In this document: positions 34,731 through 51,798 of the stretch, piece by piece
How the letters are laid out: each line of letters begins with the position of its first letter
Numbering within the stretch: position 1 is the first letter of the stretch
Virus record (IMG/VR): IMGVR_UViG_3300028394_002659
Strand: one strand, 5' to 3'
Origin: a virus
Length of the DNA: 64,000 bases
The notes under the pieces: generated by a model
Told to the model about the DNA's origin: nothing
Database searches by the model: none
Seen by the model: only the letters and a program-made list of their open reading frames with translations
Made by a program: the position numbers and the translations under genes

Positions 34731-35054
34731 TTATTCAGGATCGACTTGGGCACTGATGATCATTGCCGGAAATTCAAGTCCTTGGCCTAAATTTCCTGCT
34801 GAAACAAGATCAGCCCAGGCTTGTGCTGTGGCTAGATCTGGCCAGGACCGAACCACAGATCTTGGTGAGCTTTCAGACACGCTTTCAACAACTGATTCAC
34901 TAACAACATTATTACTTGAAACTCCGTGCGTTGTTGCAAATGTTTCTAAAACTGATTGTGCTTGTGCTTGGAAGACAGATATTGCTGTTGTAAAATCGCT
35001 TCCAGATAAGTTATGATGGGCAAATCCCCCGTTGACTACAGTAGTTGTACGCAT
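34731..35054 (-). CDS. Hypothetical late protein
   Basis: TATAAATA (35079-35086) and AGGAG upstream. Confidence 0.7.
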   Translation of the reverse strand: MRTTTVVNGGFAHHNLSGSDFTTAISVFQAQAQSVLETFATTHGVSSNNVVSESVVESVSESSPRSVVRSWPDLATAQAWADLVSAGNLGQGLEFPAMIISAQVDPE

Positions 35055-35135
35055 GATAATCTCCTATATGCTTTGAAGTATTTATACTAGACAACCCAAT
35101 AAGGTCCAAGAGTTATGTATTATCAATTACCAATT

Positions 35136-35209
35136 TGGAGCGGGATACGAGAATCGAACTCGTCACTAAACCTTGGCAAGGTTTCGAGATACCACTTCAC
35201 CAATCCCGC
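35136..35209 (-). tRNA. tRNA-Gly(GCC)
   Basis: Cloverleaf, anticodon loop TTGCCAA, CCA. Confidence 0.95.
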
Positions 35210-35290
35210 ATTTGAGAAAAACCCTGTCGTATGTGCCAACTTCCGGGAGTGGCCAGCACACAGAGGACAGAGCCGTGTTGCTTTCGCTTG

Positions 35291-35764
35291 TTAGGCTGCA
35301 CGTAGACCTTTGAATCGATCTGCGGCATATGAAGCCGCAAACGCATCAGGTTTGACAAAAGGTATAACATTACACACACCCTTGATGTAACCAATGGCCT
35401 GTGAAATCACACAACTTGATCCATGCATTTCGTTGGGATTGATGTCCAGGTGAACTTCAACTTCACGCCCTTCTAGTACTTCGGCCAGTTTTAGGTACAA
35501 TTCGCTTACTTTGTACACTTCGGTCATGAGCCGCAAACTGGGGCGACTGGCTCGTTGATCCCAGTCACGCTCACGTTGCACTTCACCAAACAATTTGCAA
35601 CCGTTGTTGCCGTTGATATGAACCACGATAGCCAGCACATAGTCAGCATGCCAAGCACCGTCAACTTTGATACGTTCACTATCACAACCAAGATAGATTC
35701 GAGTTTCGGGTGTTTGAGTCCGAATGAATTCTGCCACTTGGTCAATGTCTAGTTTTTTCATCAT
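35291..35764 (-). CDS. RNase H-like YkuK/DUF458 family protein
   Basis: IYLGCDS, RLMTEV, EVHLDIN, KPDAFAASYAAD. Confidence 0.8.
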   Translation of the reverse strand: MMKKLDIDQVAEFIRTQTPETRIYLGCDSERIKVDGAWHADYVLAIVVHINGNNGCKLFGEVQRERDWDQRASRPSLRLMTEVYKVSELYLKLAEVLEGREVEVHLDINPNEMHGSSCVISQAIGYIKGVCNVIPFVKPDAFAASYAADRFKGLRAA

Positions 35765-35804
35765 TTGCCTTCTATTTAACCTGATAAACATTACAGTTTT
35801 ATTA

Positions 35805-35881
35805 TGGTGCCCCAAGAGAGACTCGAACTCTCAAAATTTGGCTTCTAAGACCAACACGTATACCAATTCCGTCATCGGGGC
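35805..35881 (-). tRNA. tRNA-Leu(TAG), short variable loop
   Basis: Loop CTTAGAA; 77 nt; CCA. Confidence 0.9.
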
Positions 35882-35888
35882 TGAATAC

Positions 35889-35962
35889 TGGCACGGGAAC
35901 TAGGGCTCGAACCTAGAATGACAGAGTCAAAGTCTGTAGTGTTACCATTACACTATTCCCGA
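35889..35962 (-). tRNA. tRNA-Gln(TTG)
   Basis: Loop CTTTGAC; CCA. Confidence 0.93.
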
Positions 35963-35972
35963 ACAAAAAACT

Positions 35973-36047
35973 TGGTGGATGAGAGTAGAGTCGAACTACC
36001 ACTTAACTCCGTATGAAGGAGGCGCACTACCATTATGCTACTCATCC
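35973..36047 (-). tRNA. tRNA-Met/Ile2(CAT)
   Basis: Loop TTCATAC; CCA. Confidence 0.88.
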
Positions 36048-36049
36048 AT

Positions 36050-36125
36050 TGGGGTGTCTGATGGGGATCGAACCCACGCATATCGGGATCACAACCCGAG
36101 GCCTTACCACTTGGCGACAGACACC
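36050..36125 (-). tRNA. tRNA-His(GTG)
   Basis: Loop TTGTGAT; G-1:C73; CCA. Confidence 0.95.
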
Positions 36126-36131
36126 GTTGAT

Positions 36132-36208
36132 TGGCCGGTCCTGAGAGATTTGAACTCCCAACTTCCAGTTTCGAAGACTGGCACTCTATCCAATTGAGTT
36201 AAGGACCG
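36132..36208 (-). tRNA. tRNA-Arg(TCG)
   Basis: Loop CTTCGAA; CCA. Confidence 0.93.
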
Positions 36209-36213
36209 CTTAA

Positions 36214-36321
36214 CATAAGCAAACACACTACATCCAGCGAACCCATCTGCTGGCTTAGTTATTAATCGCTACAGGGTAACCGGAACCCTTCGCTGAGGCG
36301 TTAGTAATGTGTTTGCTTATG
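36214..36321 (-). ncRNA. Unassigned structured RNA, element A
   Basis: 18-bp closing stem; interior motifs shared with 38357-38421. Confidence 0.55.
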
Positions 36322-36393
36322 GTAGGGGTGCTCGGGAACGATCCGAGTTTTACTGGTTAAAAGCCAGTTACTTCACCTTAAAGTTTCACCCCC
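36320..36393 (-). tRNA. tRNA-Lys(TTT)
   Basis: Loop CTTTTAA; atypical T-loop ATCGTTC; CCA. Confidence 0.9.
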
Positions 36394-36444
36394 GCTATCT
36401 TATCACTCTTGTCACTTGTCATGACAGATCTCCTTTTAAAAAAT

Positions 36445-36518
36445 TGGTAGCCAGAACAAGAATTGAACTTGTAATAATCGCTTATCAAGCGACCGTTATA
36501 CCATTTAACTATCCGGCT
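36445..36518 (-). tRNA. tRNA-Ile(GAT)
   Basis: Loop TTGATAA; CCA. Confidence 0.93.
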
Positions 36519-36530
36519 ATAAATATGCGT

Positions 36531-36761
36531 ATGATTACCGCTGACGACGCTATGATATTCCTGTCCCAAGAGGCACAAGGTGTTTATCAACAACGATTTT
36601 ATTCCACCACAACTCGCAAGTTCACTCTCAATACCATGCTGATCAACCCACCTAAAGAGTTCAAACTTGATACTACGTTTGTGGTGCCTCCTCCAGGTTC
36701 CGACCCTGGTTCCCTGGATTTTCAGTCCAGTGCTATGACCACATCAGCTAAAGAGGCGTAA
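36531..36761 (+). CDS. 76-aa ORF antisense to the tRNA array, overlapping tRNA-Phe
   Basis: TATAAATA at 36518-36525, ATG 5 nt later. Confidence 0.45.
   Translation: MITADDAMIFLSQEAQGVYQQRFYSTTTRKFTLNTMLINPPKEFKLDTTFVVPPPGSDPGSLDFQSSAMTTSAKEA
36682..36757 (-). tRNA. tRNA-Phe(GAA)
   Basis: Loop CTGAAAA; atypical T-loop GTCGGAA; CCA. Confidence 0.9.
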
Positions 36762-36837
36762 TGGTACATCCTGACGGGCTCGAACCGCCGACAGCCTCGG
36801 TGTAAACGAGGAACTCTACCAACTGAGTTAAGGATGC
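36762..36837 (-). tRNA. tRNA-Val(TAC)
   Basis: Loop TTTACAC; CCA. Confidence 0.95.
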
Positions 36838-36842
36838 ATGTT

Positions 36843-36930
36843 TGGCGGAAGCGGTGAGATTCGAACTCACGGTACCTTTCGATACGCTGGTTTTCAAGAC
36901 CAGAGCCATAGACCACTCGACCACACTTCC
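36843..36930 (-). tRNA. tRNA-Ser(TGA)
   Basis: Loop CTTGAAA; long variable arm; CCA. Confidence 0.95.
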
Positions 36931-36936
36931 TAATTT

Positions 36937-37014
36937 TGGAATAGCGGGTGAGATTCGAACTCACGATTTTAGGGATTTGCAATCCCTTGCATTTGACCAC
37001 TCTGCCACCGCTAT
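36937..37014 (-). tRNA. tRNA-Cys(GCA)
   Basis: Loop TTGCAAA; U73; CCA. Confidence 0.93.
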
Positions 37015-37018
37015 ATAT

Positions 37019-37095
37019 TGGTCCGAGTAGTAGGATTCAAACCTACGACCCTCTGGTCCCAAACCAGATGCGCTATCAGGCTGCGCTATACTCGG
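37019..37095 (-). tRNA. tRNA-Pro(TGG)
   Basis: Loop TTTGGGA; CCA. Confidence 0.95.
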
Positions 37096-37334
37096 TTAAT
37101 TTTTTTCTTGATCCACATGCCGAACAATGTACCACAGTAGGCACCTGCCAGGGCTGGAATTAATGCCCAGTGATCTTCGGTGTAGTTGATCACTGCCACA
37201 CTGGCTGTGAATGTCACAGCCACAGACCACCATGCGGCCATCATGGCACGATCATCCTGAATTGACTTTACAAAGTAAACATAAATCAAATCAGTGGCAA
37301 ACACTGCCGCAAAAGTTATGAAGTAGGTCCACAT
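37086..37334 (-). CDS. Small membrane protein
   Basis: Three hydrophobic helices; stop lies inside the tRNA-Pro 5' end. Confidence 0.7.
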   Translation of the reverse strand: MWTYFITFAAVFATDLIYVYFVKSIQDDRAMMAAWWSVAVTFTASVAVINYTEDHWALIPALAGAYCGTLFGMWIKKKINRV

Positions 37335-37335
37335 G

Positions 37336-37563
37336 TTATTTCTTGGTTAATGGAGATTCTTGTGTTTTTTCTATCTCCGGCGGTTCTTCAAATCTTGCAT
37401 TGCCACCAAGTCCTTTCCAACTGTCTTCTGTGAAGATTCTAATGGGTCGCCAGTGTCGAGCAATGATGTTGTTGATTACAACAAGACCAATTACCACAAC
37501 AACAAAGCCTAGTGCTGTCAAAACACTACCGGCTAGAAACACTGCCGCTTGATCCATGTCCAT
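37336..37563 (-). CDS. Small membrane protein
   Basis: One TM helix; SD AAGGA. Confidence 0.7.
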   Translation of the reverse strand: MDMDQAAVFLAGSVLTALGFVVVVIGLVVINNIIARHWRPIRIFTEDSWKGLGGNARFEEPPEIEKTQESPLTKK

Positions 37564-37580
37564 AAGTTTTTCCTTAATTT

Positions 37581-37654
37581 TGGAGCGGGATAGCGGAATC
37601 GAACCGCTGACTCTAACTTGGAAGGATAGGGTAATACCATTTTACGAATCCCGC
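37581..37654 (-). tRNA. tRNA-Gly(TCC)
   Basis: Loop CTTCCAA; CCA. Confidence 0.92.
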
Positions 37655-37663
37655 TTGTTGTAT

Positions 37664-37692
37664 ATTATACTGTGTATAGACAGTTTAGTCAA
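37664..37692 (-). promoter_or_regulatory. sigma70 promoter inside tRNA array
   Basis: TTGACT-17-TATAAT. Confidence 0.8.
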
Positions 37693-37705
37693 TGACTTTG
37701 AATAC

Positions 37706-37779
37706 TGGAGCGGAATACCAGAATCGAACTGGTGACATGACCTTGGCAAGGTCGCGTTTTACCCCTAAACTAATTCCGC
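37706..37779 (-). tRNA. tRNA-Gly(GCC), second copy
   Basis: Loop TTGCCAA; CCA. Confidence 0.93.
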
Positions 37780-37784
37780 ATAAG

Positions 37785-37860
37785 TGGTGCCCCCACCATG
37801 ATTCGAACACGGCACCTACTGATTACAAATCAGTTGCTCTACCGAATGAGCTATAGGGGC
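37785..37860 (-). tRNA. tRNA-Thr(TGT)
   Basis: Loop TTTGTAA; CCA. Confidence 0.95.
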
Positions 37861-37866
37861 AAATTT

Positions 37867-37942
37867 TGGCTCCTCAGGGTGGGATCGAACCACCGACACC
37901 TTGATTAACAGTCAAGTGCAACTACCGCTGTGCTACTGAGGA
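37867..37942 (-). tRNA. tRNA-Asn(GTT)
   Basis: Loop CTGTTAA; CCA. Confidence 0.95.
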
Positions 37943-37950
37943 ATAAACTT

Positions 37951-38040
37951 TGGCGGAACGTTAGGGAGTCGAACCCTATCAACAGCGTTAACCATTGTAC
38001 AGATTAGCAATCTGCTGCCTTACCATCCGGCCCACGTTCC
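37951..38040 (-). tRNA. tRNA-Ser(GCT)
   Basis: Loop TTGCTAA; long variable arm; CCA. Confidence 0.95.
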
Positions 38041-38048
38041 TCTATACT

Positions 38049-38077
38049 ATTATATAGTTAACACCTCATGGTGTCAA
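38049..38077 (-). promoter_or_regulatory. Perfect sigma70 promoter inside tRNA array
   Basis: TTGACA-17-TATAAT. Confidence 0.85.
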
Positions 38078-38085
38078 CAGTTATT

Positions 38086-38171
38086 TGGTGGAGAGTCAGG
38101 GATTCGAACCCCGTATACCGTAAGGTGGAAGATTTACAGTCTCCTGAAGTCGCCAATGCTTCTCACTCTCC
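38086..38171 (-). tRNA. tRNA-Tyr(GTA)
   Basis: Loop CTGTAAA; long variable arm; CCA. Confidence 0.93.
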
Positions 38172-38175
38172 AATT

Positions 38176-38250
38176 TGGTGGACCGTCCCGGGTTCGAACC
38201 GGGGACTGAGGCTTGCAAAGCCACTGTGTTCCCAACTATACCAACAGCCC
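38176..38250 (-). tRNA. tRNA-Ala(TGC)
   Basis: Loop TTTGCAA; G3.U70; CCA. Confidence 0.93.
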
Positions 38251-38257
38251 AATTATT

Positions 38258-38334
38258 TGGCGACTCCGAAAGGATTTGAACCTCTGACATTTGGTTTTGG
38301 AGACCAACGTTCTGCCGGACTGAACTACGGAGCC
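38258..38334 (-). tRNA. tRNA-Trp(CCA)
   Basis: Loop CTCCAAA; G73; CCA. Confidence 0.93.
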
Positions 38335-38356
38335 ATCAACACACTGTTGCCAATGT

Positions 38357-38421
38357 GCGTATCGAAACACTCTACATGGATGAACCCACTTGCCTTGAGG
38401 CCTGAGAATGCTTCGATACGC
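38357..38421 (-). ncRNA. Unassigned structured RNA, element B (homolog of A)
   Basis: 17-bp stem enclosing GCCTCA..GCA..TGGGTTC..ATGTAG. Confidence 0.55.
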
Positions 38422-38520
38422 TCGGTTTTTTTTGTGTACAAAAACACAAGCCATCCCCGAGGCCGCCCATTTGCAGTTTTGAGTGATACCGGCTCGCGTT
38501 GCCTTGCACTTTGATAACGA

Positions 38521-38568
38521 TCATTGAACGTTATTGTGAATCCATTGCCAATACTCTTCTGTTGTCAT
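38521..38568 (-). CDS. 15-aa micro-ORF MTTEEYWQWIHNNVQ
   Basis: Strong SD AAGGAG 7 nt upstream. Confidence 0.45.
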   Translation of the reverse strand: MTTEEYWQWIHNNVQ

Positions 38569-38585
38569 TCTAGTTCTCCTTAAAA

Positions 38586-38620
38586 ACAAAAAACCCTGGA
38601 GTTTTTAGTTCCAGGGTCTT
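38586..38620 (-). terminator. Intrinsic terminator of putative attenuator 1
   Basis: ACCCTGGA-9nt-TCCAGGGT followed by TTTTTGTTTTT. Confidence 0.85.
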
Positions 38621-38646
38621 TGAATTAGATACGATTGCGTACTACG

Positions 38647-38757
38647 TTAAGACCCTGTGTCTCCTAGAATGATTGCTGTTGCGCGACCATAGGCATGTGA
38701 CCAGGCAGATGTCTGACTGAACATATTCTTGGGCGACAAACAGAGTTTCGTTTTCAT
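38647..38757 (-). CDS. Putative leader peptide 1 (36 aa, leaderless)
   Basis: MKTKLCLSPKNMFSQTSAWSHAYGRATAIILGDTGS; ATG 7 nt after TATAAT. Confidence 0.6.
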   Translation of the reverse strand: MKTKLCLSPKNMFSQTSAWSHAYGRATAIILGDTGS

Positions 38758-38764
38758 AGTATCA

Positions 38765-38793
38765 ATTATAGTTTATTTACCTTTGTGCGTCAA
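38765..38793 (-). promoter_or_regulatory. sigma70 promoter of leader 1
   Basis: TTGACG-17-TATAAT, with TAAATA in the spacer. Confidence 0.85.
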
Positions 38794-38834
38794 TCATTTT
38801 GGCAAACTTTCTTGTTGTATTTACACAACAGATT

Positions 38835-39965
38835 TTATTCACCTATACAGAAGGGTTTGCTGTAGATTGGTGCCCCGGTATCTTTTCCAATCATACTGTT
38901 GATTGGGTTGATACTGGTTTCTACCAGATGGTTGCAGAAGTCTTTTTCTAATAATAAATTTTTAATGCCTTTTACATAAAGATTAGCCACGTCATTGTGC
39001 TTCTTTAGCAAAACATCTAATCCAAGATCAAATCCACAAGAAAGTTCGCCATCAATGCCATCAACATTCACGGGGGCCAATTCAAATTTGGATTCGGCGC
39101 CTTTTTGTGCAAAACTTGCGCCAGCAAATACTTCATTTTGTCTCGATAAGTTTTTTTGCCATATGCTATACGTAGCACTTGCGATGTTTTTAAATTTGGA
39201 ACCATCGGGATCTAACCTGGCCTTGCCTGTATTTGCACTCATACGAAGTTTGAGTATTTTTTTAATCATATGACTTTGTTTGAGTGCCAACATAGGGTCA
39301 GTAAAAAAACATTCAATGTTTTCAAAATTCATTGTGCTCAACAAGGTTCTTGCATCATGGCATGAATAATATTTGTTATCTTTTTGGAATACTCTAGGTT
39401 GTTCGTGTCCAGTAATCAAACACCAGGTTGAACCACCGAACTGGTCAGCACAATAGTCCCACATTACAGAGTCCGTGGTTCCCATGGCAAATTTAGGGAT
39501 CATTGAAATATTTTGAAAGATCCAATCTTCTCCTGTTACAATTTGTTGTTTGGCCGCAGGATTAAAACGTTCTTTTACAGTAATTTTGGTCAGTGGGTCA
39601 TGATGGTTGTTTTTTAGCCAATCCACATATTGTGAATTATTCCAGGGCTCGTACTTGTCGTTGACCCAAATTACAATTTCATCAATGTGTAAATTATTGC
39701 GTTTGAACACATTGTAGATTGTGTTACTATCTGTACCGCCACTCCACGACAGCATCACATGTTCATATTTGTTTCTTAAATTACACGCATGCTGATCCAT
39801 CAGTTGATCCAAGGACTCAGCAGGGTCTTGTAACCAATTTAGTTGGTCATTCTGTTGGTCGTGACAAACAAACTCAATAGGAGTTTTGCTTATAAATGCC
39901 TCGTATTTTGCAAGTATATGATTGAAAATTATTTTGCCATTAACACGGAAATAGATAGAGGGCAT
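38835..39965 (-). CDS. PP-loop (adenine nucleotide alpha-hydrolase-like) protein
   Basis: LSWSGGTDS; GHEQPR; paralog of 43513-44628. Confidence 0.75.
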   Translation of the reverse strand: MPSIYFRVNGKIIFNHILAKYEAFISKTPIEFVCHDQQNDQLNWLQDPAESLDQLMDQHACNLRNKYEHVMLSWSGGTDSNTIYNVFKRNNLHIDEIVIWVNDKYEPWNNSQYVDWLKNNHHDPLTKITVKERFNPAAKQQIVTGEDWIFQNISMIPKFAMGTTDSVMWDYCADQFGGSTWCLITGHEQPRVFQKDNKYYSCHDARTLLSTMNFENIECFFTDPMLALKQSHMIKKILKLRMSANTGKARLDPDGSKFKNIASATYSIWQKNLSRQNEVFAGASFAQKGAESKFELAPVNVDGIDGELSCGFDLGLDVLLKKHNDVANLYVKGIKNLLLEKDFCNHLVETSINPINSMIGKDTGAPIYSKPFCIGE

Positions 39966-39981
39966 TTGTGTAGCGTATGAT

Positions 39982-40055
39982 TGGATGCGGGGGACAGATT
40001 CGAACTGCCGATGCACCTGGCTTATGAGACCGGTGTGGTGACCGCCCTCCCCGCG
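39982..40055 (-). tRNA. Atypical initiator-like tRNA(CAT)
   Basis: CGCGGGG/CCCCGCA with C1:A72 mismatch; loop CTCATAA; reduced D arm; CCA. Confidence 0.75.
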
Positions 40056-40065
40056 GTATATTTAA

Positions 40066-40369
40066 TGCTCTGCGTCCCCCGGCGGTAATTATAGTGTATC
40101 AGAAATTTCGTCAAGTTGCCCCAACTAGTCTATTCATCACTTACACCCTCCACCCGCTTCCCGACAGGGACCGTTCTCGTATTGCTAACGCCGGTTAGGT
40201 TGGACCGCTGATTGCTCAGTGAAACTTTGCTGTTTCAGAACCACCCGTGTGTGTCATCACACTTCTCATCGTCTGGGTCAGACTATCCAGTGACGCTGGA
40301 ACGTAGGGGAGAGGCCACGGTTGCAGGATCTAGTGCTCCGAAGAGGAAGTGTCCAGGCGGTGTGGCCTC
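40066..40369 (-). ncRNA. Unassigned ~300-nt structured RNA
   Basis: GC-rich, no credible ORF, many hairpins, three GCAA tetraloops on the minus strand. Confidence 0.55.
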
Positions 40370-40374
40370 AAACT

Positions 40375-40450
40375 TGGCGGTCTTAGGGGGTAACGATCCC
40401 CACTCTTACGGCGTGACAAGCCGTCGTGCGTCCATGAACACTTTAAGACC
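40375..40450 (-). tRNA. tRNA-Asp(GTC)
   Basis: Loop TTGTCAC; atypical T-loop ATCGTTA; CCA. Confidence 0.92.
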
Positions 40451-40453
40451 AAA

Positions 40454-40606
40454 TTTTTATAGTCAAGCACCGAGAATGCCAATTTAGGAGTCCGGTGCTT
40501 CCGTTCCAAAGCCGATGCAGTTATATCAGGATCAGTCGCCGGCCGCTGTGACCCGAATAGTGTATGCGTCCATACACGATACCTTATCGATGCTTGACTA
40601 TAAAAA
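40454..40606 (-). ncRNA. Unassigned structured RNA, element C
   Basis: 20-bp closing stem TTTTTATAGTCAAGCATCGA/TCGGTGCTTGACTATAAAAA. Confidence 0.55.
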
Positions 40607-40609
40607 CAA

Positions 40610-40685
40610 TGGTACTCCGTGGGGGAATCGAACCCCTCCTTACCCGCGTGAAAGGCGAGTGTCCTAACCGATAGACGAACGGAGC
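40610..40685 (-). tRNA. tRNA-Glu(TTC)
   Basis: Loop CTTTCAC; CCA. Confidence 0.95.
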
Positions 40686-40954
40686 ATGTAGTTTTACATT
40701 GAGGAACCATTGTGGATCTCGTTCTGCTTGGTTTGCGAGGCCAAGTCACCACGGTCATTACTGCCAGACGATCCGCCGCTTTTCTGGATCTACTTTTTAC
40801 AGTAGAGAGCCGACTTCATGACTGATAGCAAGTGGACACCCGCCGGTGTCAATTCACTTCTACCAATGCCTCTAACGGGTCTGGTAACCTCTTTGTATAT
40901 TTTAATGATCTGTTGCAAGTAGTCTCGATCGACTTTGTTGCTTTGTTAAGTTCT

Positions 40955-40983
40955 ATTGTAGCAGAGTTTCAATTTATGGTCTA
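40955..40983 (-). promoter_or_regulatory. sigma70-like promoter
   Basis: TAGACC-17-TACAAT. Confidence 0.6.
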
Positions 40984-40986
40984 GCA

Positions 40987-41020
40987 CAAAAAAGAAAACC
41001 CTCCGAAGCGGAGGGTCTTT
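40987..41020 (-). terminator. Intrinsic terminator of putative attenuator 2
   Basis: ACCCTCCG-CTT-CGGAGGGT followed by TTTCTTTTTT. Confidence 0.85.
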
Positions 41021-41038
41021 GTTAGTAGTACTTTTGTA

Positions 41039-41116
41039 TTACAGACAAAGCCCCCAATGGCAATCCCACTCATGTTCTGAGCGAAGGGTTGTGATGATTG
41101 CAGTTGTTTGTTTCAT
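41039..41116 (-). CDS. Putative leader peptide 2 (25 aa, leaderless)
   Basis: MKQTTAIITTLRSEHEWDCHWGLCL; ATG 6 nt after TATAAT. Confidence 0.55.
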   Translation of the reverse strand: MKQTTAIITTLRSEHEWDCHWGLCL

Positions 41117-41122
41117 AAGTGT

Positions 41123-41151
41123 ATTATATATGACAAGTGAATAAAAGTCAA
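41123..41151 (-). promoter_or_regulatory. sigma70 promoter of leader 2
   Basis: TTGACT-17-TATAAT. Confidence 0.85.
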
Positions 41152-41312
41152 GGCTTTTTGGCTCGGTTGCAAGCAGGATCTCGACAAGCCGTAATTCGTT
41201 TGCGATCACAGTCTGGGCAGTCTTTGATTCTGATCCACATGGTGGGCATGAATCTTACAACCTCATTTTTGCCTGGTTTATCCCAACTGTCACATTTGAT
41301 AGCATGTTGCAT
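41148..41312 (-). CDS. Small Cys-rich protein
   Basis: SD AAGGAG before MQHAIKC; CPDC..C....C. Confidence 0.55.
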   Translation of the reverse strand: MQHAIKCDSWDKPGKNEVVRFMPTMWIRIKDCPDCDRKRITACRDPACNRAKKP

Positions 41313-41382
41313 AATGTCTCCTTGACATACATATACAACGCCGTAGCCCGTCAAAGGGTTTACACAAACTGTGTTACTTTGC

Positions 41383-42276
41383 TCATTTCTTAGTCAATAG
41401 TTTTACTACCTGTTGATACTCACGCTCAATATCACGTGCAAACTCATCGGGTGTTTGTTTTCGGGGAACTCCAGCATGTACCACAGTGAGAATTTGTTTT
41501 TGCACTTCTTCGTTGGCTCTAGCACTTTCTAGCATGTTGTACAAGCGATCACGTGTGTCTTTGGGGGTTCCCGGTGGCGCCCAGAACCCAGTCCAGCCTT
41601 CTTGGCTGATATTGTACCCAAGTTCCACAAGACTTTTTATACCATTACGTCCCTTTGGGGTTAGCACTGCCAGGCCGTTTAGTTCTCCAGTGGCAACTCG
41701 ATCCTCCAACAAGAAAGTAACAGTGGTAACTTCGATACTCTTGTTCATCAATGCCAACATGGCCGCATTGTCACCGTTGTAGTTCACCATGATGAGATTG
41801 GGATTGTTGCCCAGCAATTCTTCAAGTGCAATTCTGGTAATAGCGCCATTGTTGCCCACAGCCACAGTGCGTGTTTTCAATGCAGACTTCAGTTGCTCGA
41901 CTGTGCGGATGTCGGAGTCTTTGCGACTGACTAGCATCTGGCCGTTTGTGGCACCACGCATGAGTGGCACAATCTTTGTCATGATTTCGTGGGCCGCGGG
42001 GTTACTGGCAGAATTGTAAACCACTGCACTGCTACCGGTATACATCACAGTGTTGCCGTCGGGCTTGGCAGCCATCAACTCCTGCATGCCAACTAGGCCT
42101 TCGGCGCCAGGTTTGTTGACTACTATAGCCTCAACGCCCTGGCGTGCCAATTCCTTGGCATACACACGTGCCGCAAGGTCAGTGTTGCCCCCGGCCGCAT
42201 AGGTAACAATAATTTTCAATGGTTCTGCCGCATGAGCAGAAGCCACAAGTAATAATGAGAGTAAAAGTTTTTTCAT
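41383..42276 (-). CDS. Bug/TctC tripartite tricarboxylate transporter solute-binding protein
   Basis: Signal peptide; YAAGGNTD, VVNKPGAEG, KPDGNT, W.GFWAPPGTP. Confidence 0.9.
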   Translation of the reverse strand: MKKLLLSLLLVASAHAAEPLKIIVTYAAGGNTDLAARVYAKELARQGVEAIVVNKPGAEGLVGMQELMAAKPDGNTVMYTGSSAVVYNSASNPAAHEIMTKIVPLMRGATNGQMLVSRKDSDIRTVEQLKSALKTRTVAVGNNGAITRIALEELLGNNPNLIMVNYNGDNAAMLALMNKSIEVTTVTFLLEDRVATGELNGLAVLTPKGRNGIKSLVELGYNISQEGWTGFWAPPGTPKDTRDRLYNMLESARANEEVQKQILTVVHAGVPRKQTPDEFARDIEREYQQVVKLLTKK

Positions 42277-42971
42277 AATTGATTGTAATCCAATTCAAAA
42301 GGTACGCTGGATTCAGCCAGTTCTTTGAACCGATCTGTGACTAAACCACTCAATCGCAACAGAGCCCTGTGCCAGTATCCAGCGTTGAAAGTGCTGTGAG
42401 CACCTGTGGGCCAATCCCAATGCACAACATCTCCGGTCCGCCAGTGAGTGTAAATTTCGTCTCCAAAAATAATACCTTGTCCCCAGCGCCAGTCAGTGAG
42501 CAATATTAACACACGACTGGCAGTGCGTCTATCATTTTGAAAAGCCGCAAGTTCCTCCTCACTGAATTGAATCTTGTGTATACTAGATTCTTCAGGAGCA
42601 ATGTAACCGTATCCCAGTTCATCTATATGCAATGGTTGCAACGCACCTGGTACAAGTGTTTGTACTCGACCACTGGGCTTGCGATAGCCGATCAAATCAC
42701 CGATACGTTCTATCACGGCAGTATCGGTGACCAACCATCTATCAAAGTCTTTGGGATCTGCTGACTCACCCACAATAGTACCAATATCAGTGTCTTTGTA
42801 CCCTAGTTCTCGAGTCAACTGATCTGCCACTGCCAGACGGCTGATGTGTTTTGCTTCCTGTAAACTGGGAATACTTTGTGCAATAGTTTGACCGTGACTT
42901 AAAAATTCGTTCCACTCCGAATGTGGAGGAATATTGCGGATATTACCTAGGTATTTGTAATGCGTTGCCAT
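42273..42971 (-). CDS. Putative cupin/2OG-Fe(II) oxygenase-like protein
   Basis: PLHID...W..GD...AHST.NAG...R. Confidence 0.55.
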   Translation of the reverse strand: MATHYKYLGNIRNIPPHSEWNEFLSHGQTIAQSIPSLQEAKHISRLAVADQLTRELGYKDTDIGTIVGESADPKDFDRWLVTDTAVIERIGDLIGYRKPSGRVQTLVPGALQPLHIDELGYGYIAPEESSIHKIQFSEEELAAFQNDRRTASRVLILLTDWRWGQGIIFGDEIYTHWRTGDVVHWDWPTGAHSTFNAGYWHRALLRLSGLVTDRFKELAESSVPFELDYNQL

Positions 42972-42989
42972 GAGAAGTTGAAAATAGGA

Positions 42990-43250
42990 GATAGGTTTAT
43001 TCTGTTACGAGGAAAACCTATCAAAACCCTAGGCTACAATCAAGCGGCCAATGCGAACTGTGAGTCGTTAGCGGTTACTTTTGTTTAGTTTTTACGACTA
43101 TCGCTGTCGTGCTGTCCACTTCAATACTCCTGACCCAATCGATCCTGTGTCATCCCCACCTAAATATACCTCATACACTTAGGTGGAGATGCCGGGCACT
43201 GCCCCCGGGTCTTGAATCCATTTTTATCGGCTTCATACAGCAATAACTTA
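42990..43250 (-). ncRNA. ssrA: Circularly permuted (two-piece) tmRNA; tag (A)ANDSQFALAA
   Basis: T arm and CATCTCC-ACC (43191-43182) lie upstream of GGGGATG (43157); G3.U70; tag ORF 43072-43040; 3' hairpin 42990-43022; TATAAATA at 43258-43265. Confidence 0.9.
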
Positions 43251-43281
43251 CAGTATATATTTATACAGGTTGTTTGTCAAC

Positions 43282-43461
43282 CTATTTGGTACTCACATGA
43301 CATGCGGCCACAATCTGTTTGTTTTGTGCCCGGAATTCTTCACGTTTTTGAACTCGGGCTTGCTCGCATTCTGCCTGAGTTTTGAACTTGGCCTGTTCGC
43401 CATACTCAGGCACCGGTCCTAAGACACTAAAACTCAACACCCAGATCAGAGTCCGGCTCAT
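43282..43461 (-). CDS. 59-aa small exported/membrane protein with two Cys (not in ORF track)
   Basis: MSRTLIWVLSFSVLG..FKTQAECEQA..ACHVSTK; TATAAATA at 43481-43488. Confidence 0.65.
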   Translation of the reverse strand: MSRTLIWVLSFSVLGPVPEYGEQAKFKTQAECEQARVQKREEFRAQNKQIVAACHVSTK

Positions 43462-43512
43462 GGCAAAATCCTAACTACTGTATTTATAGCCCAGTAGTTA
43501 AAAATCCACTGG

Positions 43513-44628
43513 TCATGGACCGATACAGTACTCCTTTGACCATGTAAATTTCAAACTGCTAAAACGCATGTCGCCAGATCTAAACCAGCCGTTGTCCCGT
43601 AACCAATTGGTAAATCCAAACTCACTGGTCAAATTATGAAATCCTTTGAGATAGTTTACCGCTGCCGGATTGTTGTCGGACAAGTCATGAAGCAGATGTC
43701 GATCAGAACTGTGTACATTGCGCCAGTCACCGTGTACCTGTAGTTGCAGTTGATCAAAAGATTCGTTGCCAATTTTTTGTGTGTGGCTGACTCCGATATA
43801 AACTTCGTCGTGTCTTCCGCAAGCAGTGGCCCAGGCACGGTATCCTGCAGGATCTTTGTCCCATTTGGACTCAGCCCAGTCATTACTGTACAACGGTTGT
43901 GCAGTTTGTTTAATGATGTTTTTAACCGCACGTTTGACCATGTGTGCTTGTTTGATTGCAATCAATGGCTCAAAGAAAAAATGTTCAATATAATCATGGC
44001 CCATTGTAGGTTGTAGCACCATGCTGAGTTGTCTATGATACCAAGCACCGTCACGATAGATCAGTCTGGGTTTTTCGTAGCCACCTATGGCTTTCCATGT
44101 GTGCCCGGCGTGATTTTTTTCGCACAGAAATTTCACAGCATCTGCAGAACTTGTGTTGCCGTATTTGAGTAGGTCGCCTTTGTTCTTCCATACCCAGTCT
44201 TCGTCGGGCAAATCAATCAGTCGCAGGTCAGTGTCGTGATCATCGTAGCGTGTGATGATTGTGGTTGGATCCCAGTGATTATTTTGGATCCAGTATACAT
44301 TGCGCTCGGGAAACATTTCTGAATCTTCTCCGGCCTTGATGATCAGTTCGTCAATGTGAATATTGTTACGTTTAAAAATGTTGTAGATAGTATGACTGTC
44401 AGTGCCGCCACTCCATAACAGAATCAGTCGCTCATATTTCTCACGCAAGGCAAGAGCATGTTGCGTCATCAAGAAGTCTAGCGATGCTTCGGGTTCCAGA
44501 GTCCAATCAAATTGATCAAACTCATAGTCATAACAGTAAAATTTAAGTTCGTGATTGTTTTTCCAGCAATCTCGCAGGGCTAGAAACACATTGTTGTAAT
44601 GTTGCCCGTTTACTTGATATGATACCAT
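43513..44628 (-). CDS. PP-loop (adenine nucleotide alpha-hydrolase-like) protein
   Basis: LLWSGGTDSH; GYEKPR; starts 1 nt after Bug gene stop. Confidence 0.75.
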   Translation of the reverse strand: MVSYQVNGQHYNNVFLALRDCWKNNHELKFYCYDYEFDQFDWTLEPEASLDFLMTQHALALREKYERLILLWSGGTDSHTIYNIFKRNNIHIDELIIKAGEDSEMFPERNVYWIQNNHWDPTTIITRYDDHDTDLRLIDLPDEDWVWKNKGDLLKYGNTSSADAVKFLCEKNHAGHTWKAIGGYEKPRLIYRDGAWYHRQLSMVLQPTMGHDYIEHFFFEPLIAIKQAHMVKRAVKNIIKQTAQPLYSNDWAESKWDKDPAGYRAWATACGRHDEVYIGVSHTQKIGNESFDQLQLQVHGDWRNVHSSDRHLLHDLSDNNPAAVNYLKGFHNLTSEFGFTNWLRDNGWFRSGDMRFSSLKFTWSKEYCIGP

Positions 44629-51450: not shown

Positions 51451-51798
51451 TTAATCTAAACGGCTACCAGCGTAGGCTGTGAATCCGTATCGCTTGAACA
51501 CATCAGCCGCCGCTTGGGCACCTGCCTCCAGGGTGTCTACGTTTTGCACGTACATGTCTGCTGGGTTCCAAATTTGGAAGGCACCGGTGTGACTCTTGCT
51601 TACGCCTGCTTCTTTCAGTGCCTTACCAAGTTTGGTATTGCCTCGAACACCAAAGATGTCAACCCAGGCAAAGCCACAGGCAAACTGATCTCGTCCGCCA
51701 AGTTTTTCTTGGAAGAAACGTTCAGCGGCTTCGCGAGCGGCTGACTTGGCTTCGGCCACAATTGTGTCTACTTTGACACCGTTTACTGTTACTGTCAT
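51451..51798 (-). CDS. Conserved phage hypothetical protein
   Basis: CGFAWV..Q....E.GA.A.A....SRLD; SD AAGGAG; promoter 51829-51857. Confidence 0.75.
   Translation of the reverse strand: MTVTVNGVKVDTIVAEAKSAAREAAERFFQEKLGGRDQFACGFAWVDIFGVRGNTKLGKALKEAGVSKSHTGAFQIWNPADMYVQNVDTLEAGAQAAADVFKRYGFTAYAGSRLD

What the first reader, a model, noticed from the sequence alone, without database searches (positions are those of the whole stretch)
36214..40606. Family of long-stem small RNAs interspersed among the tRNAs (A 36214-36321, B 38357-38421, C 40454-40606)
Seen (minus strand): each is closed by a 17-20 bp stem containing the same CAU/GUG step with a U.G wobble, despite different flanking sequence. 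A and B also share the interior order GCCTCA...GCA-nn-TGGGTTC-n4/5-ATGTAG, with A carrying an insert. Inference: an unrecognised ncRNA class released by tRNA processing, possibly protein decoys, antitoxin mimics or processing signals.
Basis: partly seen in the sequence, partly recalled or inferred. Interest (0 to 1): 0.7.

Follow-up and report, generated by a model that had tools for sequence, protein, structure and literature searches.

The report
Clamp-and-cassette RNAs in phage tRNA operons
The three long stems are real RNA helices of a giant freshwater phage: standard roughly 20-base-pair "sockets" in its tRNA operons that each hold an exchangeable folded RNA, a modular arrangement that matches no catalogued RNA family and whose function is still unproven.

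Summary
A, B and C are the three strongest inverted repeats in the tRNA region. Each folds far better than shuffles, and none matches Rfam.

They are not three equivalent small RNAs.
- A is a 19-23 bp clamp that starts on the CCA of tRNA-Lys and encloses a conserved ~75-nt core. The core occurs in 18 distinct sequences with strong covariation.
- C is a similar clamp after tRNA-Glu, around a different conserved core. Its homologs sit after tRNA-Glu, Leu and Tyr in other phages.
- B is not a free-standing RNA. It is the constant 15-17 bp helix of a single-copy, ~190-nt leader RNA that heads the tRNA array. That leader occurs in at least 119 viral contigs and is almost absent from cellular genomes.

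At all three kinds of site the helix is kept while its top is swapped: 34 tip types in helix B and 41 cores after tRNA-Lys. Identical cores turn up in different sockets. The closest relative has bare hairpins at sites A and B.

G-U pairs are far commoner than A-C mismatches (none in helix B), so the pairing is RNA on the tRNA strand.

My best reading, which is inferred, is that these are RNase III-type processing stalks that release cassette RNAs and free the tRNA 3' ends. What the cores do is unknown.

This scan reached a similar reading on another phage genome (e1-5338259).

The parts
36211..36324 (-). Element A. The clamp helix P1 has arms 36304-36324 and 36211-36231, and its 5' arm begins on the ACCA end of tRNA-Lys(UUU). 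It encloses the A-type core (about 36232-36303), which contains P2, the P3 hairpin with a CCGG loop, and the P4 hairpin with loop AGAUGGGUUC.
   Evidence: I2. Model R1 scores 130.8 bits at 36210-36325. Covariation was counted on alignment A4.
36320..36393 (-). tRNA-Lys(UUU). Its 3' CCA (36320-36322) lies inside the 5' arm of clamp A.
38357..38421 (-). Element B. This is the long helix of the tRNA-array leader RNA, carrying the most common ('class 1') tip: a GCC-loop-GGC hairpin plus a GUGGGUUCAUCCAU hairpin.
38339..38525 (-). Whole tRNA-array leader RNA. It comprises the 5' strand of S1 (AAGUG), hairpin H1 (loop AACGCGA), stem S2 enclosing CACUCAAAAC (which pairs back with S1 as a pseudoknot), the single-stranded AAUGGGCGGCCU, H3/H4 with a GGAUGG//AAAAAA internal loop, helix B, and hairpin H6 (ACAUUGGCAACAGUGU). 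tRNA-Trp follows directly.
   Evidence: Model R2 hits G000:56486-56594, which is window 38412-38520.
40454..40606 (-). Element C. A 19-21 bp clamp that follows the CCA of tRNA-Glu(UUC) after a 3-nt gap and ends 3 nt before tRNA-Asp. It encloses the C-type core: GGUAUCGU, a hairpin with GGAC loop, a GGGUC...GAUCC hairpin holding CGGCCG, and further helices.
   Evidence: (I1).
38765..38793 (-). Sigma-70-type promoter (TTGACG-17-TATAAT). Through a short ORF and a terminator (about 38590-38620), it drives the transcript that carries the leader RNA with B and the tRNA-Trp/Ala/Tyr genes.
   Evidence: and the sequence. This is context, not part of the RNA.
37664..37692 (-). Promoter (TTGACT-17-TATAAT) of the long sub-array that contains tRNA-Lys, A and tRNA-Arg.
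   Evidence: Context only.
41123..41151 (-). Promoter (TTGACT-17-TATAAT) of the unit that contains tRNA-Glu, C and tRNA-Asp.
   Evidence: Context only.

Best explanation
A, B and C are three 'sockets' in the tRNA operons of a giant freshwater phage, whose host is probably a Polynucleobacter-like betaproteobacterium. Each socket is a double-stranded RNA clamp of fixed length: about 20 bp when anchored on the CCA end of a tRNA (A after tRNA-Lys, C after tRNA-Glu), and 15-17 bp stacked on a 5-bp helix in the operon's leader RNA (B). Each clamp presents an exchangeable, independently folding RNA cassette at its top. Shown here: the helices are RNA-level, conserved in length and partly in sequence, while the cassettes are swapped between phages and between sockets. 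Inferred: the clamp is a processing stalk cut by a double-strand-specific nuclease, most likely host RNase III, as in bacterial rRNA operons. A staggered cut in the stalk would have three effects. It would release the cassette as a hairpin-closed small RNA. It would leave the upstream tRNA with a short single-stranded trailer that exonucleases can trim back to CCA. It would hand the downstream tRNA to RNase P. The two conserved arms would also supply the homology that lets co-infecting phages exchange cassettes. What the released cores do is not known.
For: RNA helix on the tRNA strand:
- A-type P1 has 14 of 19 pairs with compensatory double changes and 95.6% of cells paired, with 0 of 500 shuffles as good.
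- The basal 13 pairs of helix B count 1093 Watson-Crick, 64 G-U and 0 A-C.

Fixed length near two helical turns:
- 111 CCA-anchored clamps of at least 16 bp have a mode of 20 bp, and 87 of them are 19-22 bp.
- Helix B is 15-17 bp in 83 of 94 folded sequences. Its 5' strand continues directly from the 3' strand of the 5-bp H3.

Dispensable or exchangeable tops:
- Helix B tips range from 3 to 96 nt and fall into 34 clusters among 89 helices.
- There are 41 core clusters in 57 tRNA-Lys clamps.
- 12 core clusters occur in two or more socket kinds, 3 of them shared between helix B and CCA clamps.
- The close relative L031 keeps bare hairpins at sites A and B.

Placement between mature RNAs:
- The clamp starts on the CCA in 147 of 1784 tRNA 3' ends, against 30 in shuffled controls.
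- The next tRNA lies within 12 nt in 76 of 102 cases.

Shared mid-helix sequence, suggesting one reader:
- A-type (L155) has AUAUCGAAGCA/UGUUUCGAUAU and B has GUAUCGAAGCA/UGUUUCGAUAC.

Background:
- RNase III reactivity depends on base-pair sequence in the proximal box, and rRNA processing stems are its classic substrates (PMC3074117).
Against: - No cleavage data exist for these helices.
- Most tRNA junctions in these arrays have no clamp and are presumably processed without one, so the stalk is not needed for tRNA release in general.
- The phages carry no RNase III gene of their own, so a host enzyme has to be assumed.
- Helix B alone (15-17 bp) is shorter than a canonical two-turn substrate.
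- The interiors of A-type and C-type are themselves strongly conserved. The helix may therefore serve the core, as a folding insulator or end protection, rather than act as a cleavage site.
Confidence: 0.45

Rival explanations
1. The clamps are not cut. They are terminal 'staples' that let a foreign structured RNA fold independently inside a polycistronic tRNA transcript, and they protect its ends from exonucleases once RNase P and 3' trimming have released it. The cores would be the functional products: trans-acting small RNAs such as protein decoys, anti-defence RNAs or self-assembling RNAs.
For: - The cores are under selection of their own. A-type has invariant junction and loop nucleotides plus covarying P3 and P4. 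In C-type, 17 of 26 predicted pairs are compensatory.
- The A-type P3 loop holds a 4-8 nt palindrome in 18 of 18 sequences, in six forms (CCGG, CCCGGG and its longer form, the CAUG form UCCAUGGA, ACUAGU, and the CUAG forms UCUAGA and UUCUAGAA). The two central positions always stay complementary, as expected for a kissing-loop homodimer.
- A-type also occurs outside tRNA arrays.
- The G003 copy of C is followed by a terminator-like hairpin, like a stand-alone gene.
Against: - A 20-bp perfect duplex would be an RNase III substrate in most bacteria unless protected.
- With the CCA buried in an uncut helix, the upstream tRNA-Lys could not be matured without destroying the cassette.
- Bare hairpins with no core are maintained at the same sites, so the helix has value without a core.
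Confidence: 0.3
2. The elements are small self-cleaving ribozymes next to viral tRNAs, comparable to the HDV-like theta ribozymes, that cut themselves off the tRNA 3' end.
For: The context is the same as reported for theta ribozymes, which lie adjacent to viral tRNAs (bioRxiv 10.1101/2023.06.13.544163, abstract listed). A-type starts exactly at the CCA and has a conserved multi-helix core with a possible GCCU/GGGU pseudoknot (helix 2, invariant).
Against: - No hit to any ribozyme family in Rfam at E<=10.
- The 5' and 3' ends pair with each other over about 20 continuous bp, which is not the HDV-like topology.
- The cores at one site are unrelated to each other (41 types), so a common catalytic core is excluded.
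- Bare hairpins occur at the same sites.
Confidence: 0.05
3. The elements are DNA-level features: miniature inverted-repeat mobile elements, or protein-binding or recombination palindromes, with no RNA role.
For: They have terminal inverted repeats of 17-23 bp with variable content between them. Cassettes move between sites.
Against: - The imperfections are strand-specific. G-U occurs 64 times and A-C never in helix B. In A-type P1 the counts are 26 G-U against 3 A-C.
- The elements always lie on the tRNA strand, with no opposite-strand tRNA in any of 102 loci.
- The inverted repeats stay in place while the interior changes, the reverse of what a transposon does.
- Internal hairpins also covary.
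Confidence: 0.03
4. The elements are regulatory hairpins (attenuators, terminators or RNA thermometers) that tune expression of the downstream tRNAs.
For: B lies in an operon leader just downstream of a terminator. Two promoter/short-ORF/terminator units head the arrays (sequence).
Against: - No U-tract follows A, B or C, and none is called as a terminator on the minus strand.
- A 20-bp helix offers no obvious alternative fold.
- A and C sit in the middle of arrays.
Confidence: 0.07
5. The elements are Y-RNA-like RNAs: a long stem bound by a Ro/Rsr protein plus a tRNA-like module.
For: They have a long terminal stem with a structured head and are encoded next to tRNAs. Some cores in other phages carry a T-arm (GGGGUUCAAAUCCCC).
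Against: The Rfam YrlA model hits only genuine tRNAs, well below threshold, and none of A, B or C. No TROVE/Ro gene is present in this phage fragment or in 4 near-complete relatives.
Confidence: 0.03

Closest known systems
RNase III processing stalks of bacterial rRNA operons (long helices formed by the sequences flanking 16S and 23S rRNA)
   Same: Both are a long duplex that loops out a structured RNA within a polycistronic stable-RNA transcript containing tRNAs. The sequence inside the duplex can matter to the enzyme (PMC3074117). The clamps here peak at 20 bp.
   Different: Here the looped-out RNA is 3-170 nt and freely exchangeable rather than an rRNA. Many stalks start on the CCA of a tRNA. 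Cleavage has not been shown. The Aquifex rRNA stalks in that paper are predicted at about 33 and 44 bp.
Phage T4 small stable RNAs rnaC (species 1, 139 nt) and rnaD (species 2, 119 nt) in the T4 tRNA cluster
   Same: Both are non-tRNA stable RNAs of unknown function, encoded on the tRNA strand directly beside phage tRNA genes (annotation). T4 rnaC contains a T-arm-like hairpin, as do some cassette cores here.
   Different: There is no sequence or structure homology: model R1 finds nothing in the T4 region. The T4 RNAs have no 20-bp terminal clamp. No cassette exchange is known for them.
HDV-like theta ribozymes next to tRNAs of gut phages (bioRxiv 10.1101/2023.06.13.544163)
   Same: Both are small structured RNAs placed adjacent to viral tRNAs, with a proposed role in tRNA end formation.
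   Different: The topology differs: here the ends pair with each other over about 20 bp. There is no Rfam ribozyme hit, and no catalytic core is shared among the many cassettes.
Bacterial Y RNAs (YrlA, Rfam RF02553)
   Same: Both have a long terminal stem plus a folded head and are associated with tRNA-like modules.
   Different: There is no model match on A, B or C and no Ro/TROVE gene in these phages.
Promoter-early stem-loop (PeSL) mobile regulatory cassettes of T4-type phages (recalled from memory: Arbiol et al. 2010; not checked here)
   Same: Both involve conserved flanking sequences that let small non-coding modules be shuffled between related phage genomes.
   Different: PeSLs are promoter-plus-terminator DNA modules flanking genes. 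The modules here are RNA helices within tRNA transcripts that carry structured RNA cores.

Membership tests
Any Rfam 15 family | Covariance-model score at or near the family's gathering threshold | tested here: not met
   No hit overlaps A, B, C or the leader RNA at E<=10 in window 35000-44000, nor the leader RNA at E<=1 in 11 other loci that carry it.
RNase III processing stalk | Continuous double-stranded RNA of about two helical turns | tested here: met
   CCA-anchored clamps have a mode of 20 bp, and 87 of 111 are 19-22 bp. A is 19 bp and C about 21 bp. Helix B is 15-17 bp, shorter unless it stacks on H3.
RNase III processing stalk | Flanks or loops out a mature stable RNA within a multi-gene precursor | tested here: met
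   The clamps run from a tRNA CCA to within 12 nt of the next tRNA in 76 of 102 cases. B lies between the leader domain and tRNA-Trp.
RNase III processing stalk | Staggered double-strand cleavage by RNase III | not testable with these tools
   Needs end mapping in wild-type and rnc hosts, or an in vitro assay.
Y RNA / YrlA | Match to the YrlA model (Ro-binding stem plus tRNA-like domain) | tested here: not met
   RF02553 hits only true tRNAs, at 23-28 bits against a threshold of 69.
Y RNA / YrlA | Ro/Rsr (TROVE) protein encoded nearby | tested here: not met
   PF05731 is absent from G000 and 4 near-complete relatives, while the control genomes were detected. The host genome could not be tested.
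T4 species 1 / species 2 RNAs | Stable non-tRNA RNA gene on the tRNA strand inside a phage tRNA cluster | tested here: met
   The T4 annotation is. RNA stability here is untested.
T4 species 1 / species 2 RNAs | Sequence or structure homology to rnaC or rnaD | tested here: not met
   R1 finds nothing in T4 69500-73500. Folds of rnaC and rnaD lack a long terminal clamp.
HDV-like (theta) ribozyme | Nested double-pseudoknot fold whose P1 begins at the cleavage site and pairs with an internal segment | tested here: not met
   The 5' end pairs continuously with the 3' end over 19-23 bp. No HDV-family hit.
Miniature inverted-repeat DNA element | Symmetric DNA inverted repeats that move together with their interior | tested here: not met
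   G-U is tolerated while A-C is absent or rare. The arms stay at the site while the interiors change.
Intrinsic terminator | GC-rich hairpin followed by a U-tract | tested here: not met
   No minus-strand terminator call at A, B or C. The flanks read UUAAGCGG, ACAUUGG and AUUUGGUC.

The most novel reading that the evidence does not exclude
Giant freshwater phages run a general expression platform for small structured RNAs inside their tRNA operons. It consists of a few standard clamp 'sockets' (one in a dedicated single-copy leader RNA, others anchored on the CCA of tRNA-Lys, Glu, Leu, Thr or Tyr) into which about a hundred unrelated RNA cassettes (100 clusters among 192 cores here) are swapped by recombination. 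The released cassettes would be trans-acting effectors, for example decoys against host tRNA-directed or RNA-sensing defences. Some may self-assemble, given the palindromic loops of A-type. That would make this a fast-evolving RNA arsenal analogous to protein anti-defence islands.
Probability: 0.25. Interest if true: 0.85.

Novelty: new variant of a known kind. Interest (0 to 1): 0.66.

Why it matters
Phage tRNA arrays are usually read as codon-usage or anti-defence supplements. Non-tRNA RNAs inside them have been known since T4 (species 1 and 2) and have never been explained.

This analysis adds several things:
- Three new, covariation-supported RNA families: the A-type core, the C-type core and the tRNA-array leader RNA.
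- A constant-length clamp shared by all of them.
- Evidence that the clamp is a reusable socket whose contents turn over quickly between phages.

If the clamp is an RNase III stalk, it explains how a phage can load arbitrary structured RNAs into a tRNA precursor without spoiling tRNA maturation. It would also offer a natural design for expressing folded RNAs.

If the cores are effectors, this is a large unexplored pool of phage small RNAs. Both readings can be tested directly by RNA end mapping once a cultured host-phage pair is available.

Tried and rejected
- **Rfam.** The gathering and E<=10 searches of the window, and an E<=1 search of 11 more loci, found only tRNAs, the tmRNA and sub-threshold noise.
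- **Phage database.** A megablast of the region found only tRNA-sized matches.
- **Phage-encoded enzymes.** RNase III (PF14622) and Ro/TROVE (PF05731) are absent from this record and 4 near-complete relatives.
- **Narrow helix regex.** Searching for the helix as AAGCAY...RTGCYT was too narrow. It found only C and one chance hit at 51569-51633.
- **Known folds, compared by eye.** I compared the leader RNA and A-type with hammerhead, HDV-like, twister, RNase P P4, SRP, 5S loop E and T-loop patterns. Only short resemblances turned up (for example AAAGU.../...ACUUA against RNase P P4, and GCAGAUG...GGAUGUAG against 4.5S RNA), and I dropped them.
- **boxA/boxC.** The 3' arm of helix B plus H6 faintly recalls boxA and boxC of nut/rrn antitermination leaders. 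The boxA-like strand is locked in a stable helix and aligns only with gaps, so I kept this as a lead only.
- **Literature.** The searches found no description of these RNAs. One search failed on a term that was too short.
- **Ascertainment caveat.** The first A/B homolog set was selected on the shared motif. I repeated the search with patterns that do not include that motif, and conclusions about motif conservation rest on the second set.

Full report
**Source and setting.** The window is part of an IMG/VR virus record of 148,928 bases, judged about 43% complete. Relatives that carry the same RNAs are 329-364 kb phage genomes, two of them with terminal repeats. On the minus strand the window carries 25 tRNA genes and a permuted tmRNA. 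These are arranged in sub-arrays behind near-consensus sigma-70 promoters at 41151, 38793, 38077 and 37692. The surrounding genes include TctC/Bug and DctP solute-binding proteins and TauD. The leader-RNA pattern had only one exact match among 185,579 cellular species genomes, on a 6-kb contig of a Polynucleobacter MAG. This points to a freshwater betaproteobacterial host and shows that the RNA is essentially confined to viruses.

**Checking the observation.** A (36214-36321), B (38357-38421) and C (40454-40606) are the three best noncoding inverted repeats in the tRNA region. Each folds with a long terminal stem, with z-scores of -4.6, -6.8 and -5.3 against dinucleotide shuffles. The CAU/GUG step and the shared A/B interior motifs are present as described. 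No Rfam family matches any of them, even at E<=10.

**Element A.**
- *Homologs and structure.* Two pattern scans of IMG/VR, one of which did not use the motif shared with B, recovered 18 distinct homologs. I wrote a structure on alignment A4 consisting of clamp P1, a short P2, hairpin P3 and hairpin P4. On it, 95.6% of cells pair and 21 of 35 pairs show changes on both sides. None of 500 shuffles and none of the slid controls comes close.
- *The clamp.* P1 is 19-23 bp, and 14 of its 19 pairs covary.
- *The core.* The ~75-nt core is strongly conserved. It includes an invariant AGAUGGGUUC loop and a possible four-pair GCCU/GGGU pseudoknot. The pseudoknot pairs hardly vary, so they are untested.
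- *The P3 loop.* The loop contains a 4-8 nt palindrome in all 18 sequences (cores CCGG, CUAG, CAUG and CCCGGG, and longer forms). The two central positions change together and stay complementary. Two adjacent positions in one loop cannot pair with each other within one molecule, so this suggests loop-loop homodimers. That is an inference.
- *Context.* A-type is single-copy where present (G000 and G001) and absent from G003 and G004. It lies on the tRNA strand. In 7 of 19 contexts it starts on the CCA of an upstream tRNA (Lys, Phe, Tyr or Ser). A few copies lie outside arrays.

**Element B.**
- *It belongs to a larger RNA.* Aligning the flanks of B-type homologs showed that B is one helix of a bigger conserved RNA.
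- *Covariation in the 5' domain.* On 98 distinct sequences (alignment A5), hairpin H1, stem S2, H3 and H4 all covary. H3 pairs in 100% of cells, with three pairs changing on both sides. A pseudoknot helix, AAGUG with CACUU, has nine compensatory A-U to C-G cells. Overall 88.5% of cells pair, with 0 of 500 shuffles as good.
- *Copy number and position.* A covariance model of this domain finds exactly one copy in each of five genomes, including one that lacks the exact pattern. In 84 of 85 loci with enough downstream sequence the RNA is followed by same-strand tRNAs, a median of 10 within 2 kb, and never by opposite-strand tRNAs. It is therefore the leader of the main tRNA array.
- *Helix B within the leader.* Helix B is 15-17 bp in 83 of 94 folded sequences. 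Its eight basal pairs are almost invariant (GUAUUAAA/UUUAAUAC) and the upper pairs covary. The basal 13 pairs count 1093 Watson-Crick, 64 G-U and no A-C.
- *The tip.* The tip ranges from 3 to 96 nt and falls into 34 unrelated clusters among 89 helices. The window's tip belongs to the largest cluster, with 25 members.

**Element C.** C is 97-98% identical in L031 and G004 and 82% identical in G003, with compensatory changes in two inner hairpins. A survey of clamps then turned up diverged C-type cores after tRNA-Glu, tRNA-Leu(UAG/UAA) and tRNA-Tyr in seven more phages. On the ten-sequence alignment, 17 of 26 predicted pairs keep pairing through changes on both sides. These include a long-range GGGCCAU/AUGGCUU helix. 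C is therefore a third independent structured-RNA family.

**What unites them.**
- *Clamp survey.* I tested all 1784 distinct tRNA 3' ends in the fetched loci for a helix of at least 14 bp beginning on the CCA. 147 have one, against 30 when the downstream sequence is shuffled.
- *Clamp length and placement.* Among the 111 clamps of at least 16 bp, length peaks sharply at 20 bp. 57 follow tRNA-Lys(UUU) and 18 follow tRNA-Glu(UUC). The next tRNA lies within 12 nt in 76 of 102.
- *Variable cores.* The tRNA-Lys clamp has a conserved arm (CCAUAUnAAAACACA) but 41 different cores of 7-167 nt. A-type is just one of these.
- *Cores move between sockets.* Pooling all cores, 12 clusters occur in more than one kind of socket, and three occur both in helix B of the leader and in CCA-anchored clamps.
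- *Closest relative.* L031, whose neighbouring gene is 82% identical at the protein level, has bare hairpins at both the A and B positions while keeping C.
- *Shared arm sequence.* The arms of A-type P1 and of helix B share an 11-bp core. The A-type model's only other hit in the genome is B.
- *Conclusion.* The 'family' is real, but it is a family of sockets: conserved, constant-length clamps holding interchangeable cassettes.

**Mechanism.**
- *Shown.* The pairing is RNA-level on the tRNA strand. Helix length is constant. The helix sequence is partly conserved. Tips are exchangeable, and the helices sit flush between mature RNAs.
- *Inferred.* A perfect duplex of about 20 bp is the textbook substrate of RNase III, whose reactivity also depends on base-pair sequence in the helix (PMC3074117). 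Because the CCA of tRNA-Lys is buried in the clamp, some endonucleolytic cut in the duplex seems necessary to mature that tRNA without degrading the cassette. A staggered RNase III cut would satisfy all three products.
- *Caveats and the main rival.* The phages encode no RNase III, so a host enzyme must be assumed, and nothing here demonstrates cleavage. The main rival is that the clamp is an uncut staple serving functional cores. The two readings are not mutually exclusive. I give the stalk model 0.45 and the staple model 0.30.
- *Disfavoured readings.* DNA-level, terminator, ribozyme and Y-RNA readings are disfavoured by specific tests.

**Comparison with known systems.** The nearest functional analogue is the rRNA-operon processing stalk. 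The nearest positional analogue is the pair of T4 small stable RNAs. Those RNAs lack the clamp and are not homologous. Theta ribozymes share the tRNA-adjacent context but not the fold.

**Novelty.** I found no paper describing these RNAs. An earlier follow-up in this scan, on another phage genome, described 'CCA-anchored hairpin cassettes' with the same reading (e1-5338259). I reproduced its main claims independently here, with counts. I also added the leader RNA as a second kind of socket, the sharing of cores between sockets, and the A-type and C-type families.

**Verdict.** I rate this a new variant of a known kind (processed passenger RNAs in stable-RNA operons), comprising several new RNA families. 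Function is unproven.

Noticed in passing
window 38339-38525 (-): The tRNA-array leader RNA is a new family in its own right. It is about 190 nt, with a pseudoknot, an invariant GGGCGG tract and two helices with variable tips (helix B and H6). It is single-copy in 5 of 5 genomes, occurs in at least 119 viral contigs, and heads a tRNA array in 84 of 85 loci. Its function is unknown; a processive-antitermination or precursor-handling role is only a guess.
   Followed up: partly
window 36268-36282 (-), P3 loop of A; alignment A4 columns 42-51: The P3 loop holds a 4-8 nt palindrome in all 18 A-type sequences, and the two central bases co-vary to stay complementary. This suggests kissing-loop homodimers. 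One inner hairpin of C also holds the palindrome CGGCCG (CCGGCCGG in G003).
   Followed up: partly
window 39982-40055 (-): A 74-nt tRNA-shaped gene directly behind a promoter-like TTGACG-15-TATAAT. Its acceptor stem is identical to that of E. coli initiator tRNA (CGCGGGG/CCCCGCA, with the C1xA72 mismatch), and it has a normal T arm and a CAU triplet. Its D and anticodon regions are aberrant, and neither ARAGORN nor the Rfam tRNA model calls it.
   Followed up: no
window 38540-38590 (-): A Shine-Dalgarno sequence plus a 15-codon ORF (MTTEEYWQWIHNNVQ, two Trp codons) lies between the upstream terminator and the leader RNA, ahead of tRNA-Trp. It is kept in L031 (MTTEEYWKWIHDNVQ) but absent from most other phages that carry the leader RNA.
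   Followed up: no
window 38590-38793 and 40987-41151 (-): Each of two strong promoters is followed within about 7 nt by a short ORF and then an intrinsic terminator, upstream of the tRNA units. In several other phages the same terminator sits 10-20 nt before the leader RNA. The arrays may therefore be expressed by read-through.
   Followed up: no
window 40066-40369 (-): A GC-rich, ORF-poor stretch of about 300 nt between tRNA-Asp and the fMet-like tRNA, with several hairpins and no Rfam match at E<=10.
   Followed up: no
window 42979-43294 (-): A phage-encoded permuted (two-piece) tmRNA. It scores 112 bits on both the permuted and the betaproteobacterial Rfam models. L031 has the same gene, with tag peptide ANDSQFALAA.
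   Followed up: no
L172 (JBBAKF010000113.1, Polynucleobacter sp. MAG, 6,223-b contig): This is the only cellular-genome match to the leader RNA pattern among 185,579 species genomes. It is most likely a phage fragment binned with its host, which makes it a clue to the host.
   Followed up: no
window 38357-38375 and 38339-38356 (-): The 3' arm of helix B (UGUUUCGAUACGC here; consensus GUGCUUUAAUACA, and UGCUCUUUGAUACA in some phages) followed by hairpin H6 ending in GUGUGU faintly recalls the boxA and boxC elements of nut/rrn antitermination leaders. However, the boxA-like strand is locked in the helix.
   Followed up: partly
L111, and clusters (after tRNA-Thr, after tRNA-Lys, and in leader helix B): Some cassette cores contain a perfect tRNA T-arm (GGGGUUCRAAUCCCC), like T4 rnaC. 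Part of the cassette pool is therefore tRNA-derived.
   Followed up: no
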